64,000 nucleotides of DNA, from assembly GCA_000002445.1 (NCBI GenBank), contig CP000070.1, positions 1-64,000 of the forward strand. Reading direction: 5' to 3'. Source of the DNA: Trypanosoma brucei. Taxonomy: Eukaryota. Below, one piece after another: positions 27,001 through 37,000 of the stretch (positions are counted from its first letter, which is position 1; each line of letters starts with the position of its first letter). A program made the position numbers.

Positions 27001-30000
27001 CTCTTTCGAGTCCTTTTAAGTTACCTGGAATAGAACCAAGCGCTCCATTTTTGTTCTTGTTCACTATTTGCTCATTCCACTGGAAATAGTTGCTTCAGTT
27101 CCGAGTCCAACTTTTCGAGAGTTTCTGCGTACTGCTTTTCTTCACCCACACCCAAGGGCAATCCCCCCATTTCTTTTGTCACCTGTTCCAGTAGCCTTAC
27201 CCACGGTACGTCTTCATCTCCCCTCCTATCACCCATTAGAACGTAAACCACGCCTGGTCCCGGAACCGGTTTGTGAAAGAGACTGAGAGGCCACATGTGG
27301 TATCTTGTTGTGAATCCCATGTAAAGCTCAGTTCCGATAGAATTATCGTGTCGATGCCCAAACTTATGGGTGAACTTTTTCACCATTTCCTTAAAACCAA
27401 TTTGAAGATCTCGCACAACAGCACATTGTGCTCTGAGGTAGTTCCATCTCTCCCACGAATCCCTATTTGGTTTCCATACTGCGAGATTGGGACCCGCTAC
27501 ACAATTTTGACAGCAAAGTTTGGTTTTTTCCCTTGATTCGACGTCTGTCGCGCACATGCACAACAAATCTCTACTCAATGTCGCCGGTGGGTTATTTACT
27601 GCCGATCGCGTCGCCTTCTGTCTACACACTCCATCCCTGCTTGCTGTGCCCTCTCTAATCTCTTCCGGCTCACGAGGCACACCATACAAAGCTTGATAGA
27701 TTTTTCTCTCCAAATCACCTGAGTGTGGCACCCAAGGGGTTTTTGTAATATCTACGTATACCTGTGCAGCAGTACCTGCTATCTGTTGGACTTTTTCCAG
27801 TGTTCGGTGGTCCAATCTCGTGTTCGTCGAGATTGTTTCTTCCCGGCGTGCTTCTTCCTGAACCTCCTCCTTCGAATGTGGCTTTTGGTCCTCTTCCTTG
27901 GGGTGTATTTTCTGTTTTTCTTCATGTGAGTGAGATTTCCTATCTTCTTCCTTCGAATGTGATTCCTCTTCATCCGTCTCCTCCCAGTCCGACTCCTCCG
28001 GATCTGCGCTTTCGGATCCTTCTTCCTCCTCGTCTTCTGCTTCAGAATCCGCTCCCCTCATACTTACACCCCCGTGCCTTCTGTTAACCAAATCTTTTGC
28101 GGCATCCCAAAACGCTCTGCGACGTCCACAAGTCTCGTCATCGGTATTTTCACAAATCTTGTTCAATATCCCAAGTCCAGCTACTTGTAAACACCTTGCT
28201 CCAATTCTTGTTGCATCTTTAGTCACTTCTCGGGCCTCTTTTATCCTTCGTAATGCATTTTTGGTTACCTTTATCATGAGACATAATGCAACAAATTCAT
28301 CCTCATTGAGGAAGTCACTCGCCCCAGAAGTAGCCGTGTGGAATGCCAACAGCAACGAAATAACAAAAATTTTAATAGCATACATTTTTTTTCCTTGACC
28401 TTTTTTAAATGTCACCCCTTCTAAAGCAAGAAGGGAAAAATTAAGTCGTCCAACATTTCAGTATGCACTTCACAAAAAGAGTTTATTTGTTAGCGTGGTT
28501 TCAGTTTATGCTTTCAAATACTCCACATTACAGAAGACTACCGGAAATTATTATTTGGGGATGAACGAAAAATAGGCTGTTTTACCTCCGGTTTTCGTCA
28601 CTAAAATATTTGCAGCACTACTCTCTTTCATAGCAACTCTCAATTTAAAAAAAAAGAAATGAAAAATGAAAACTAAACAATACAGAAATGCTCACTTCAC
28701 TCCAAATGGTATCACTACTTTCCAACTTGGTTCAGTGCAACAACAAAGCAGTTTTTTTTATAGTAAAATGCGTCTCTCGTATGACACAGACTTATATGAG
28801 CACTCCAATGTTAATATGTATCGCATCAAAAAGCGTGATAGCCTCACAGAAATTTTTAATTCTTCGTGTAGACAATGCGGGAATCTAATAATGAGTCTAA
28901 TCAAGCCTACAAATATGTTGAATCCCTCACAACTCTCTTCCTCACCATAAATGCTTATTTCGTCCAAAGACATATATGCATAAATATATGCTTCCAAGAT
29001 TTAATATATGCCTTTATAAATGCAAAATGGTTACGGTGGATTTCTCCTGCGGCCATATCGTAGGTATTTTCGATCCAGCCAGATCGAACCCCAGATACCT
29101 CTGCTTGGACTGTTTAAGCATATTTTCTGCAGTGCGTTAACCATTGGTGTGCTATGGAAGTAATCCACCCCCATCCAAGGAATCCTTAACCAGATCGATT
29201 CTGACTTCATTTCGGAATGTGTGGAACGCTCTGACTGACCTCACTTTTTTCACCACCCATATCCTTTTACTACTAGCAAGGAACCGTGCACCCACCCGTC
29301 GGTTTTGTTTATACCGTACCGTAATTCACCTTGAATATAAAAGAAACAATTGTCTTTTTTTTCTGTTACTTTAATAGCGTGCGCACAGAACTTTGCTGCA
29401 GCGCGCTTTTCAGATGCAACCCCCGCTTCGATAACTTTTTCATCCCCTAGTGTAAGTTATCGTGCGTTTTCCTATTATGCCAGTCGCTGTATTTCGTCTG
29501 CGCCGACTCTGACCGTTTTGTTTATTTATGTCCCCCTAATCGTGGTGAACAGCGCACCGTTGGGTCCAGCAAGTCCCCTCCCGTGATGCTACAGCAAACC
29601 CGTGTTTTCGACCCTTACACATCTTTCTATTTTCGTTTTCCGTTATTCCACGTATCCACATCGTTGCCACGGGCCTGCACTTCATCACCACAATCAAAAA
29701 CAGCCGCTTTTTTTTTCTGTTTTTTTTTTTGTGTCAGCACCTCAACGTAATACAATCAAATGCGACCACCGACAACGCATCCCTTATCAGCAGTTCGCCC
29801 CGTGCTTCCTAGAAAAAAAAAAAGTTTCACCTCCACAGGTTGTTTTCGCGCACATCTCAGCCCACTACATAGTAGCGCTGAGAAACTTGACCGACAAAGA
29901 TTCACGCCCTTTCCAACCCTGACACTTGCAAGAATAAAGATGATAGGCGCACGTTTACGGGCGCGCCCATGGTAGCGAAACAGCACTCCCACTGGTGTTC

Positions 30001-34000: not shown

Positions 34001-37000
34001 TGGTTGGAGCAGACACGGCGTGTTTCTTCGCATGTGTTCTTGTTTAGTCTCCTCTTGGGATTTGTTGATCGGTTCTTTTCTTTCACCTGTTTCCTGTTTC
34101 ATACTTTTATTAACATACCAACTTGATCCCACCACTTTTTGGCGTGCATGTGTGCGTTTGTACTACTTTGTTCCAAAGAATTATACACACTTATCTAAGG
34201 GGCTGATGACGTCGAGACTGTTTGCGGATATCGTTGATGCAAGCAAATGTGCTAAGTTTTTCCCTAAGACCCCTTCTGCGGTTCAAGAGGTCGCAGCTGA
34301 GGCAAAGAGGAGGGCACTGGAGAAACTTGAAAGAATTTATTCCCTTTCCAGTGCGTCTCGAACATTCTTAAATACGGCCTCTGTAGCAGACGTTGCTGCG
34401 GCGGAGATTGGCGTGTCAGCTTCTTTGCTTTCCGTTGCGATGAACGTTTCTCCTGACGAGGCCACACGGCAGGAAGCGAAACAGCAAATGGTTGATCTAC
34501 AATCGTTTTCAATTGATCACTTTGAATCAAACAAGCGTCTTTTTGAATCACTTAAAGCCGTTTCTCAGAGTAATGCATACAGGGATGAATATGTAAATGG
34601 CGGGCGGGACAGGGAGTATTCATATTGGCTCGATGAGGAACTTAAGGGTTACAAGCGAAAAGGAATGGAGCTACCGGACAGCGAATTGGAGAAAGTTGTG
34701 TCGCTTCAAAAGGAACTTTCATCTTTATGTACAACTTTTTCTCGGAACATAAGTGAGGACAAAAGCGAGATTGTTGTCTCAGCTGAGGAGTTGGCAGGAG
34801 TACCTGAAAACGTTATAAGTGGTCTCAGTAAGACTAAGGATGGATTGTTTGTCTTAAAAATGGATTATCCGACCCTTTTTTCAGTGATGAAAAATTGTGA
34901 AGTCGCCTCTACTCGTCGGGAAATGTCGCGTGCCGCGAGCAACAAGGCTTATCCTGAAAATTTATGTGTTCTCAGAGAGATTGTCACGAAGCGGCAGAAA
35001 CTGGCGGAGCTTCTCAAATTTTCTTCCTTCAGCGAACTTAATCTTGACGACAAGATGGTCAAATCTCCTGAGGCAGCGCGAGCATTTATCGATGACCTCG
35101 TCCCGCGCTTGCAGGAGAAGTGGAAATCGGAGCTTGAGCTAATACTAAGAAATTTACACAGCAGCTGTGCTCTGACTGAAGATGGAAGGCTCAGGGACTA
35201 TGATGTGCCGTTTATGATTAATCAGGTTAAAAAATTCAAATTCAACGTCAGTGAGACGGATCTTCAGGAGTACTTTCCTCTTGACACAACCGTGAAAGGA
35301 CTCTTTGATATATATGAAAGATTTTTTGATGTTACCTTTACCCGCGTTGATAACGGTGACGAGCTTTGGCATAAGGACGCGTTTACGCTTCATGTGTTAA
35401 ACAATAAAACAAAGGACACACTGGGCCATGTGGTGCTTGATTTATTTCCTCGTGAGGGTAAATTTTCACACGCCTGTTGTATCTCTGTTGTTCCTCCCGT
35501 TTTGTTGGAGGGCTCTGAGAGCAAGTTTTCTCCTGCGTTATCCGTGGTTCTTGCCAATTTCCCTGCACCGTCCGCCGAACGTCCGTCTCTTTTTCTTCAT
35601 GATGATGTGGTTACCTTTTTCCATGAGTTTGGACACGCTATTCATTCTCTCTTTGGACGGAGTAAAATGGCTACGTTTGCGGGTACCCGCGTGAAGAGGG
35701 ACTTCGTCGAACTTCCATCGCAGATGCTTGAAGAATGGGTTTGGGAAGTTGATATTCTCAGGAATATATCTTGCCATTACAAAACAAAAGAGAAGTTACC
35801 TACTGAACTTGTTGAATCAAAGGTTAACACCCGAAATACTTTCAGTGGTCGGGATTCCCTAAGACAACTGGAGTTTGCTTCGTATTCTCTGGAGTTGTTC
35901 AGTGCCCCATTTGCCAGAGTGAAGGACATAAAGGAGATGGACACTTCTGCACTTATGGCTGACATTCGCAGCCGAATAAATCCACACATTAAGTATGATG
36001 ATGAAACTCACTTTGAATGCAGTTTCGGCCACCTTACCGGCTACGGAGCTGGATACTACGGTTACATGTGGTCCAAGGTGTTTGCTCTTGATGTGTATGA
36101 CTTTATCAAGAATAATGGGGGCTTATTGAACCCTGCCGTAGGGGAGAGATATGTTTCTGAAATAATTGGTGTGGGAGGTGGAAAAGATCCAAGTGAGATG
36201 CTGAGAAACTTCCTCGGGAGAGAACCAAGCAGCGACGCTTTTTTCAAAAGCCTTGGTGTATAAAACGTCGAAGCCTGATGGCAGACTATTTTTACATTTT
36301 TTTTTTCTTAATACCTGTCTACTTCCTTTTATTTTCAAGTATCAATCTGTCTGAATGTTGTAATGAACTTCTTTCTCCTCCTCCCAAGCATGAAGATTAT
36401 CGCTGGCATGTGTAGGATATATAAACTTCTATCGAACAGGAAATGTCCGTACACATATTTTTAATTTCCCCCGGAGTAACAAATACGTAATGACAGGGAA
36501 GTTGGTGGGAGAGCGCGAGTGGTCGATATGTAGACGCCTTTACATGGTGTTACTCTACATATGTGTATATACGTATATATTTATACGCGGGTACATTCTC
36601 ATCTTTTTTCTACTTATACAATTAAGGTGGCGTTGATTTGAAGAGTAGTCATGCCGGTAGGCTGGTCCTCTTCCTCTTCTTCATCGGATGAGGAACTTCG
36701 TATGAGGCTGATGGCTAACTTGAGGGAGAGACGTGTTTGTGGGAGAGCGGGCCCTTCTGCACCCTCTCGTTTTGTCATGTACAACGGTGATAGTATAGTA
36801 GTAAAATGTGGAACTGTATTTTGCCCGTTGAGGAAAAGGTACTTTCATTTACAAGCAGTGAAACGAAACCCAGCAGCATATTTTGGAGACGGTACTCTAA
36901 GGAGATACGAGCGTAGCTCCCTGTCGTTGGATTCAATCTATCTAATTGACGCCTCAAAGGAAAGGAATATAAACAACCAATCTAGGCGGGTGAACCTTCT

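What the first reader, a model, noticed from the sequence alone, without database searches (positions are those of the whole stretch)
28416..34205. Candidate divergent strand-switch region (transcription start region) between the - strand decayed genes and the + strand housekeeping unit.
Recognisable genes upstream of 28.4 kb are all on the - strand. Genes from 34.2 kb onward are on the + strand. The 5.8-kb gap has no convincing ORF. It contains G+T-rich stretches at about 33.4-34.1 kb (gtgtgaatatttttgctttgttgcgcttatgttg...) and a (CA)16 tract. Kinetoplastid RNA polymerase II transcription starts at such divergent regions, and GT-rich promoter elements have been described there.
Basis: inference. 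Interest (0 to 1): 0.5.

Follow-up and report, generated by a model that had tools for sequence, protein, structure and literature searches.

The report
Known trypanosome divergent transcription start region

Summary
The window is T. brucei TREU927 chromosome 7, bases 1-64000; window coordinates equal the published Tb927_07 coordinates. The gap 28386-34205 lies between Tb927.7.180 (VSG-related gene, - strand) and Tb927.7.190 (thimet oligopeptidase, + strand).

It has no ORF beyond chance, no Pfam domain in any frame, no tRNA, no Rfam hit and no repeats. It diverges from T. b. gambiense faster than the flanking genes.

The G+T-rich block is real. Bases 33351-34178 are 64% G+T, above every equal-sized window of the downstream unit. 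The strand-composition bias flips at 31221, mid-gap, 130 bp from a (CA)17 microsatellite that reads (TG)17 on the leftward coding strand.

Kolev et al. 2010 (Table S14) list Tb927.7.180->.160 (-) and Tb927.7.190->.300 (+) as a divergent pair of Pol II units. Published Bdf3 sites flank the gap at 27821-28221 and 36028-36428.

Three details were wrong:
- VSG genes at 2-12 kb are on the + strand.
- The two nearest - strand genes are intact and expressed, not decayed.
- The repeat has 17 units, not 16.

Whether the GT-rich block itself acts as the promoter remains untested.

The parts
23503..24285 (-). Tb927.7.170, ESAG9; second gene of the leftward unit
   Evidence: Intact 260-aa ORF. Annotated at these coordinates in Tb927_07_v5.1. 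Its mRNA is stumpy-enriched.
25244..25644 (.). Published Bdf3 consensus site (summit +/-200 bp) inside the leftward unit
   Evidence: mSphere 2022 (PMC9241505) Tables S1 and S4.
27072..28385 (-). Tb927.7.180, VSG-related (VR) protein, 437 aa; first gene of the leftward unit
   Evidence: Pfam VSG_B, E = 1e-64. Coordinates. Detected by SILAC proteomics. Listed as the first ORF of the - unit in Kolev Table S14.
27821..28221 (.). Published Bdf3 consensus site at the 5' end of the VR gene (left twin peak)
28386..34205 (.). Gene-free divergent strand-switch region, which must contain the start sites of both units
   Evidence: No ORF beyond chance. No Pfam hit in six frames. No tRNA or Rfam hit. No repeats. 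About 94% identical to T. b. gambiense against about 99% for coding sequence.
28386..31220 (-). Left half of the gap, mildly G+T-rich on the - strand, which is the coding strand of the leftward unit
   Evidence: G+T on the + strand is 0.455 over 28386-31100, so about 0.545 on the - strand. Cumulative keto skew falls until 31221.
31054..31087 (-). (CA)17 microsatellite, which reads (TG)17 on the leftward coding strand; length-polymorphic
   Evidence: TRF: 17 copies, 100% match. (CA)10 in T. b. gambiense. (GT)n 10-mers are among those enriched on the coding strand at the 5' end of start regions (Wedel 2017 Dataset EV1).
31221..31221 (.). Compositional switch point, the minimum of cumulative (G+T)-(A+C)
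   Evidence: The gap midpoint is 31295. The matching maximum at 56871 marks the convergent region at the far end of the + unit.
33351..34040 (+). G+T-rich block on the rightward coding strand; candidate dispersed promoter of the Tb927.7.190->.300 unit
   Evidence: G 0.274 and T 0.366 over 33351-34178. G+T of 0.64 exceeds every 828-bp window of the unit. Six exact matches to Wedel 10-mers on the + strand within 33-34 kb.
34040..34178 (+). [quoted passage not shown]
   Evidence: Read directly from the sequence. Transcript 5' end at 34179 in Kolev Table S1.
34206..36263 (+). Tb927.7.190, thimet oligopeptidase (M3); first gene of the rightward unit
   Evidence: Pfam Peptidase_M3, E = 1e-113. Homologues. 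v5.1 coordinates. Listed as the first ORF of the + unit.
36028..36428 (.). Published Bdf3 consensus site (right twin peak)

Best explanation
The gap is a divergent strand-switch region of T. brucei chromosome 7. It is the shared, gene-free origin of two Pol II polycistronic units.

- The short leftward unit holds the VSG-related gene Tb927.7.180 and ESAG9 Tb927.7.170, running to Tb927.7.160. It heads toward the subtelomeric VSG array.
- The rightward unit is the first housekeeping unit, Tb927.7.190 to Tb927.7.300.

Pol II most likely starts at many dispersed sites inside the gap, in both directions, with no focused promoter. Acetylated, variant-histone chromatin read by Bdf3 is known to mark such start regions in general; at this locus only the Bdf3 sites over the first genes on each side have been seen. 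Direction is favoured by G+T-rich sequence on each coding strand:
- a strong 0.7-kb block at 33.35-34.04 kb for the rightward unit;
- a weaker bias plus a (TG)17 tract for the leftward unit.

The primary transcripts are then cut into mRNAs by trans-splicing; the first acceptor on the right is at 34179.

Shown: gene arrangement, absence of genes in the gap, the composition flip, the published classification as divergent units, Bdf3 sites on both flanks, and transcripts on both sides.

Inferred: that start sites lie inside the gap, which follows because each first mRNA must be spliced from a longer precursor; and that the GT-rich block contributes to initiation or direction.
For: - Identity of the locus: coordinates match Tb927_07_v4 and v5.1. 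The window is collinear with T. b. gambiense chromosome 7.
- Head-to-head first genes.
- Kolev 2010 Table S14 types both units 'Divergent', and the text says 5'-triphosphate reads are enriched at every such unit.
- Bdf3 sites at 27821-28221 and 36028-36428.
- Leftward transcript Tb7.NT.1 at 22449-19760, and rightward transcript start at 34179.
- Keto-skew minimum at 31221 and maximum at 56871.
- G+T of 0.64 at 33351-34178, above anything in the unit.
- GT-rich coding-strand sequence drives directional Pol II transcription in T. brucei (Wedel 2017).
- A - strand gene immediately upstream of the peptidase is also seen in two T. cruzi strains.
Against: - I saw only tables, not read-level 5'-triphosphate or histone-variant tracks, so exact start sites are unknown.
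- No Bdf3 consensus summit falls inside the gap. This may be the usual trough between twin peaks, or poor mapping of another strain's reads onto a fast-diverging stretch.
- Exact matches to the published enriched 10-mers are few and no better than in some ordinary intergenic kilobases.
- The top published 10-mer, poly-G, is absent: there is no run of six or more G and no G-quadruplex motif.
- The gap is not conserved in sequence in other trypanosomes, and T. cruzi lacks the GT-rich block.
Confidence: 0.9

Rival explanations
1. The gap is only a passive spacer. Transcription of the rightward unit begins further left, for example as read-through from the + strand VSG array at 2-12 kb, and the GT-rich block is merely an extended splice-acceptor region.
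For: VSG ORFs at 2-12 kb are on the + strand. Part of the T-rich stretch is the polypyrimidine tract of the 34179 acceptor. Matches to the published 10-mers are weak.
Against: Between the VSG array and the gap, about 18-28.4 kb is transcribed leftward: Tb7.NT.1, ESAG9 and VR. Kolev 2010 classes both units as divergent starts. Bdf3 sites sit on both flanks. Strand bias flips inside the gap, not at 12-18 kb. The GT-rich block extends about 700 bp beyond the polypyrimidine tract and exceeds every intergenic region of the unit.
Confidence: 0.04
2. The gap hides unannotated genes. Candidates are the three small + strand ORFs that annotators called in T. b. gambiense, or a non-coding RNA gene, which would make the true intergenic region much shorter.
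For: The gambiense annotation has ORFs of 112, 129 and 140 aa in the syntenic gap. Pervasive low-level transcripts are common at such regions.
Against: All three ORFs are interrupted by frameshifts or stops in TREU927, and their protein identity of 60-88% tracks neutral DNA divergence. There is no Pfam domain in any frame and no Rfam family or tRNA. ORF lengths are within chance. Kolev's novel-transcript list has none in the gap: Tb7.NT.1 lies at 19.8-22.4 kb and Tb7.NT.2 at 44.4-45.1 kb.
Confidence: 0.04
3. The gap is a decayed relic of a former gene or mobile element at the subtelomere-core boundary, and its composition is a leftover of that history rather than a functional signal.
For: It diverges fast from gambiense, with bins at 86-98% identity. 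It adjoins ESAG and VSG-family genes. In T. cruzi a GP63 gene occupies the equivalent side.
Against: No protein-domain relic was found in six frames. There is no tblastx match to the T. cruzi, T. melophagium or L. major upstream regions. No repeats or copies exist elsewhere in the window. This reading is also compatible with, and does not replace, the start-region role.
Confidence: 0.02

Closest known systems
T. brucei divergent strand-switch regions and Pol II transcription start regions (Siegel 2009; Kolev 2010; Wedel 2017)
   Same: Head-to-head polycistronic units. A gene-free spacer of a few kilobases. Bidirectional dispersed initiation. Bdf3-marked chromatin on both flanks. Coding-strand G/T bias that flips at the switch. 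This exact locus is listed in Kolev 2010 Table S14.
   Different: Nothing essential. The leftward unit is unusually short, with three annotated ORFs, and it points into a subtelomeric VSG array. The poly-G runs typical of many such regions are absent.
Synthetic GT-rich promoters of Wedel et al. 2017 (GT_210_nt, GT_416_nt)
   Same: G+T-rich sequence on the coding strand just upstream of the first gene. 64% G+T over about 0.8 kb.
   Different: The synthetic elements are concatenated enriched 10-mers with long G and T homopolymers. The natural block here has few exact 10-mer matches (six per kb), no G run, and only one run of eight T. Its activity has not been tested.
Mammalian CpG-island dispersed, bidirectional promoters
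   Same: Broad initiation zones, divergent transcription and no focused core motif. Kolev 2010 draws this analogy.
   Different: There is no CpG-island composition; GC is 0.44-0.55. The products are polycistronic precursors resolved by trans-splicing.
Start regions next to tRNA, snRNA or rRNA genes, and internal start regions of T. brucei (the other types in Kolev Table S14)
   Same: Same Pol II initiation chromatin.
   Different: No tRNA or other RNA gene is present, and the two flanking units are on opposite strands, so the type is 'Divergent'.

Membership tests
T. brucei divergent strand-switch region / Pol II transcription start region | First genes of two units lie head-to-head on opposite strands with a gene-free spacer | tested here: met
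   Tb927.7.180 at 27072-28385 (-) and Tb927.7.190 at 34206-36263 (+). The spacer has no ORF beyond chance and no domain.
T. brucei divergent strand-switch region / Pol II transcription start region | 5'-triphosphate (primary transcript) RNA ends enriched, in both directions | not testable with these tools
   Read-level data could not be inspected. The published summary (Kolev 2010 Table S14, and the text 'every divergent transcription unit') lists both units as Divergent.
T. brucei divergent strand-switch region / Pol II transcription start region | Start-region chromatin: Bdf3, H4K10ac, H2A.Z and H2B.V enriched as twin peaks | tested here: inconclusive
   The Bdf3 part is met from published tables, with sites at 27821-28221 and 36028-36428, plus 25244-25644. 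H2A.Z, H2B.V and H4K10ac were not available to me.
T. brucei divergent strand-switch region / Pol II transcription start region | Stable transcripts of opposite polarity on the two sides | tested here: met
   From published tables. Tb7.NT.1 (-) at 22449-19760; ESAG9 mRNA; VR protein; THOP1 mRNA at 34179-36517 (+).
T. brucei divergent strand-switch region / Pol II transcription start region | Coding-strand G-over-C and T-over-A skew that changes sign at the switch | tested here: met
   Cumulative keto-skew minimum at 31221. GC skew changes sign at about 33.2-33.3 kb.
T. brucei divergent strand-switch region / Pol II transcription start region | No Pol III or Pol I gene at the boundary, which separates the 'Divergent' type from the 'next to tRNA/snRNA/rRNA' types | tested here: met
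   ARAGORN found 0 genes. Rfam found 0 hits at gathering score in the whole window.
GT-rich Pol II promoter element (Wedel 2017) | G+T-rich sequence on the coding strand at the 5' end of the start region | tested here: met
   0.640 G+T at 33351-34178, the 99.3rd percentile of the window and above the maximum of the unit.
GT-rich Pol II promoter element (Wedel 2017) | Enrichment of the published coding-strand 10-mers (poly-G, (GT)n, T-runs with G) | tested here: inconclusive
   Six + strand matches against zero - strand matches in 33-34 kb, but 38, 54 and 55 kb score equally. There is no poly-G at all. (TG)17 lies on the - strand at 31054-31087.
GT-rich Pol II promoter element (Wedel 2017) | Orientation-dependent reporter activity and H2A.Z deposition | not testable with these tools
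   Needs transfection and ChIP.
Sequence-specific Pol II promoter (Cordon-Obras 2022) | Presence of the defined core promoter motif | not tested
   The paper is not held in the library, so the motif was not available. Staneva 2022 reports that such motifs are not general.

The most novel reading that the evidence does not exclude
The 0.7-kb GT-rich block at 33351-34040 could be a discrete, orientation-dependent promoter for the first housekeeping unit of chromosome 7. The length-polymorphic (TG)n tract on the opposite strand (17 units in TREU927, 10 in T. b. gambiense) could be its mirror element, tuning output of the short leftward unit that carries the developmentally regulated ESAG9 and VSG-related genes next to the silent VSG array.
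Probability: 0.1. Interest if true: 0.35.

Novelty: already known. Interest (0 to 1): 0.1.

Why it matters
It matters little as a discovery. This strand-switch region has been in the published list of T. brucei Pol II transcription units since 2010, and its flanks carry published Bdf3 sites.

The check does show that a sequence-only reader can recognise a kinetoplastid start region from gene orientation and G+T skew.

It also gives base-level landmarks for anyone wishing to test a natural GT-rich element at a subtelomere-core boundary:
- composition switch point at 31221;
- GT-rich block at 33351-34040;
- splice acceptor at 34179;
- polymorphic (TG)n at 31054-31087.

Tried and rejected
- Six-frame Pfam scans of the gap found no family. 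The only line was a chance-level hit at E = 0.13. A first attempt with DNA references failed because of stop codons.
- tRNA and Rfam scans of the whole window gave nothing.
- Exact look-ups of the peptidase product starting at 34206 or at 34032 were not on record. The gambiense orthologue had to be used instead.
- blastn and tblastx of the gap against the regions upstream of the orthologous peptidase in T. melophagium, T. cruzi (two strains), T. grayi (GCA_000691245.1; species recalled from the accession) and L. major gave no hit at E <= 1e-3.
- A repeat search in the gap, and blastn of the gap against the rest of the window, gave only short chance-level matches.
- Counting the published Wedel 10-mers was not discriminating.
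- A G-run and G-quadruplex search found none in the gap.
- Papers not held: Cordon-Obras 2022 and Siegel 2009.
- Wedel 2017 supplements hold no start-region coordinates for chromosome 7.
- Kolev Figure S13 shows a chromosome VII switch region, but the stored text has no coordinates.
- A phrase search for Bdf3 peaks inside the gap failed because of the table format. It was solved by reading the sorted table.
- Considered and rejected: hidden small genes, because the ORFs are broken between subspecies; a gene or transposon relic; and read-through from the + strand VSG array.
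Full report
**What the window is**

Pfam scans of the long ORFs show trypanosome-specific families (VSG_B, the A-type VSG domain and the VSG C-terminal domain) next to housekeeping genes. The M3 peptidase at 34206-36263 is 99% identical to the T. brucei gambiense DAL972 protein. The window is collinear with gambiense chromosome 7 over 24977-46305.

Kolev et al. 2010 (PMC2936537) Table S1 gives Tb927.7.190 on Tb927_07_v4 as ORF 34032-36263 with a transcript at 34179-36517. These are exactly the window ORF coordinates. A 2022 Bdf3 study (PMC9241505) gives the following on Tb927_07_v5.1:
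- Tb927.7.170, 23503-24285 (-)
- Tb927.7.180, 27072-28385 (-)
- Tb927.7.190, 34206-36263 (+)
- Tb927.7.200, 36651-38267 (+)
- Tb927.7.210, 39714-41384 (+)

The window is therefore T. brucei TREU927 chromosome 7, bases 1-64000, and published coordinates can be read directly onto it.

**Gene map**

| Region | Strand | Content |
|---|---|---|
| 2.2-11.7 kb | + | VSG genes and fragments |
| 22449-19760 | - | novel transcript Tb7.NT.1 |
| 23503-24285 | - | ESAG9, Tb927.7.170 |
| 27072-28385 | - | VSG-related gene, Tb927.7.180 |
| 34.2-55.6 kb | + | thimet oligopeptidase, WD40 protein, proline dehydrogenase, CDP-diacylglycerol synthase, two RPS28e copies, LRR proteins, Brix protein, cyclophilin and others |
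| from 57.5 kb | - | further genes |

**Checking the observation**

The gap is real. No ORF in it exceeds chance: the longest is 132 aa, and 21% of shuffles reach that length. No Pfam family matches any of the six frames. There is no tRNA or Rfam family. There are no meaningful repeats and no copies elsewhere in the window.

Three small + strand ORFs that annotators called in the gambiense gap are broken by frameshifts or stops in TREU927. The gap is about 94% identical to gambiense (250-bp bins range from 86% to 98%), against about 99% for the coding regions to its right. It therefore behaves as weakly constrained non-coding DNA.

The quoted GT-rich string is at 33793-33826. Bases 33351-34178 are 27.4% G and 36.6% T, so 64.0% G+T. 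That is the 99.3rd percentile of equal-sized windows. It is above the maximum (59.8%) found anywhere in the + strand unit, whose mean is 54.8% with sd 2.5%. The CA tract is at 31054-31087 and has 17 units.

- The VSG ORFs at 2-12 kb are on the + strand, so not all upstream genes are on the - strand.
- The two nearest - strand genes are not decayed. Tb927.7.180 is an intact 437-aa VSG-related protein seen by SILAC proteomics. Tb927.7.170 is an intact ESAG9 whose mRNA is stumpy-enriched.
- The last roughly 140 bp of the 'GT-rich' stretch is the polypyrimidine tract and AG acceptor of the mapped splice site at 34179.

**What it is**

Kolev et al. 2010 mapped putative Pol II start sites with a 5'-triphosphate-enriched library. 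[quoted passage not shown] Their Table S14 lists Tb927.7.180->Tb927.7.160 (-) and Tb927.7.190->Tb927.7.300 (+), both typed 'Divergent'. The gap is exactly the space between these two first ORFs.

The Bdf3 CUT&RUN study lists consensus sites (summit +/-200 bp), sorted by position. The first ones on chromosome 7 are 25244-25644, 27821-28221, 36028-36428 and a weaker 45232-45632; the next is at 227 kb. Bdf3 therefore marks both flanks of the gap, the twin-peak pattern expected of a divergent pair. No summit lies inside the gap. That could be the usual central trough. It could also be reduced unique mapping of another strain's reads to a fast-diverging stretch.

Composition agrees. The cumulative (G+T)-(A+C) curve has its minimum at 31221, 74 bp from the gap midpoint. 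Its maximum is at 56871, in the convergent region that ends the + unit. GC skew changes sign at about 33.2-33.3 kb.

**How it most likely works**

Each first mRNA is made by trans-splicing of a longer precursor, with the acceptor at 34179 on the right. Pol II must therefore start upstream of each first acceptor, inside the gap. This step is inference.

By analogy with what Kolev 2010 and Wedel 2017 showed genome-wide, initiation is probably dispersed and bidirectional, and sense direction is favoured by G+T-rich sequence on the coding strand. On the right this is the block at 33351-34040. On the left the bias is weaker, about 54.5% G+T on the - strand over 28386-31100. It includes the (CA)17 tract, which reads (TG)17 on the leftward coding strand.

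(GT)n 10-mers are among those Wedel 2017 found enriched on the coding strand at the 5' end of start regions. The tract is length-polymorphic: it has 10 units in gambiense.

The promoter role of the GT-rich block is not shown. Exact matches to the published 10-mers are few, six in 33-34 kb, a count equalled in three ordinary kilobases. The top published 10-mer, poly-G, is absent, and there is no G-quadruplex motif.

**Comparison with relatives**

A - strand gene just upstream of the orthologous peptidase is also found in two T. cruzi strains, where it is a GP63 gene. Automated gene calls suggest the same in T. melophagium. In L. major the peptidase is internal to a + strand unit, preceded by an SNF2 gene.

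The spacer sequence itself is not conserved between species. T. melophagium has a similar GT-rich 1.6 kb upstream of the peptidase, at 58-66% G+T; T. cruzi does not.

**Rivals**

- Read-through from the + strand VSG array is contradicted by leftward transcripts across 19.8-28.4 kb, by the published classification and by the position of the skew flip.
- Hidden genes are contradicted by broken reading frames between subspecies and by the lack of any domain, RNA family or listed novel transcript in the gap.
- A gene or transposon relic has no support from six-frame or tblastx searches, and would not replace the start-region role.

**Verdict**

The feature is a typical member of a well-known class, and this very locus is already in the literature. 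Interest is low. The one open point is whether the natural GT-rich block, and the polymorphic (TG)n tract on the other strand, act as directional promoter elements. That needs reporter or genome-editing experiments and read-level start-site data.

Noticed in passing
window 2279-11733 (+), and 11650-12650: An array of VSG genes and fragments lies on the + strand (VSG_B, A-type and C-terminal domains), with a GC content that alternates every 2-3 kb or so. It is followed by the most G+T-rich kilobase of the window (up to 0.72). That kilobase contains telomere-like TTAGGG repeats (GGGTGTTTCGGGTTAGGGTTAGGG at 12278) and a 15-bp tandem repeat at 12265-12296.
   Followed up: partly
window 34032-34205; L001 10001-12232: The old gene model of Tb927.7.190, and the current T. 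b. gambiense model (P0001, 743 aa), start at an ATG at 34032. That ATG lies upstream of the mapped splice-acceptor site at 34179. The true start is 34206 (685 aa), as in other trypanosomatids, so the gambiense protein record is 58 aa too long.
   Followed up: yes
window 44398-45632: A weaker published Bdf3 consensus site at 45232-45632 coincides with one of the most G+T-rich 400-bp windows of the unit (44901-45300, 0.632). It also adjoins the novel transcript Tb7.NT.2 (44398-45143, +), just upstream of the LRR gene Tb927.7.250. This may be a minor internal start site inside the + strand unit. Kolev Table S14 does not list one here.
   Followed up: partly
window 56000-57500: The cumulative G+T skew peaks at 56871, between the last + strand gene (ends 55605) and the first - strand gene (57553-58581). 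This marks the convergent strand-switch or termination region. Novel transcript Tb7.NT.3 (56121-57350, +) lies in it.
   Followed up: partly
window 24977-34200 versus L001: Identity to T. b. gambiense drops from 98-100% right of about 34.2 kb to 82-98% left of it. The collinear alignment reaches back only to window 24977 (L001 979). The strand-switch region therefore also marks the edge of the conserved chromosome core.
   Followed up: partly
window 43314-44275: Tandem duplication of the ribosomal protein S28e gene (43393-43704 and 43919-44230; the first 40 residues of the two products shown are identical). The duplication is also present in T. b. gambiense, T. melophagium and T. cruzi.
   Followed up: no
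window 38945-38971 and 39609-39661: A (TG)13.5 tract and a (TTA)17.7 tract lie in the intergenic region upstream of proline dehydrogenase. The TTA tract ends about 50 bp before the ATG at 39714. The 38750-38999 bin shows indel differences from gambiense.
   Followed up: no
window 50782-51284: About 2.3 copies of a 213-bp tandem repeat (80-86% matching) lie inside the leucine-rich repeat protein gene at 50638-52251.
   Followed up: no
window 27072-28385 (-): The VSG-related protein Tb927.7.180 carries a long acidic and lysine-rich low-complexity insert (EEEEGSESADPEESDWEETDEEESHSKEEDRK...) between its signal peptide region and the VSG_B domain. Published tables list it as lacking both a GPI signal and a transmembrane domain.
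   Followed up: no
L006 (L. major) versus L004/L005 (T. cruzi) and window: Synteny to the right of the peptidase (WD40 protein, proline dehydrogenase, CDP-diacylglycerol synthase, RPS28e) is kept across Trypanosoma; in the L. major locus only the WD40 protein is recognisable. The strand switch to its left exists only in Trypanosoma; in L. major the gene is internal to a unit.
   Followed up: partly
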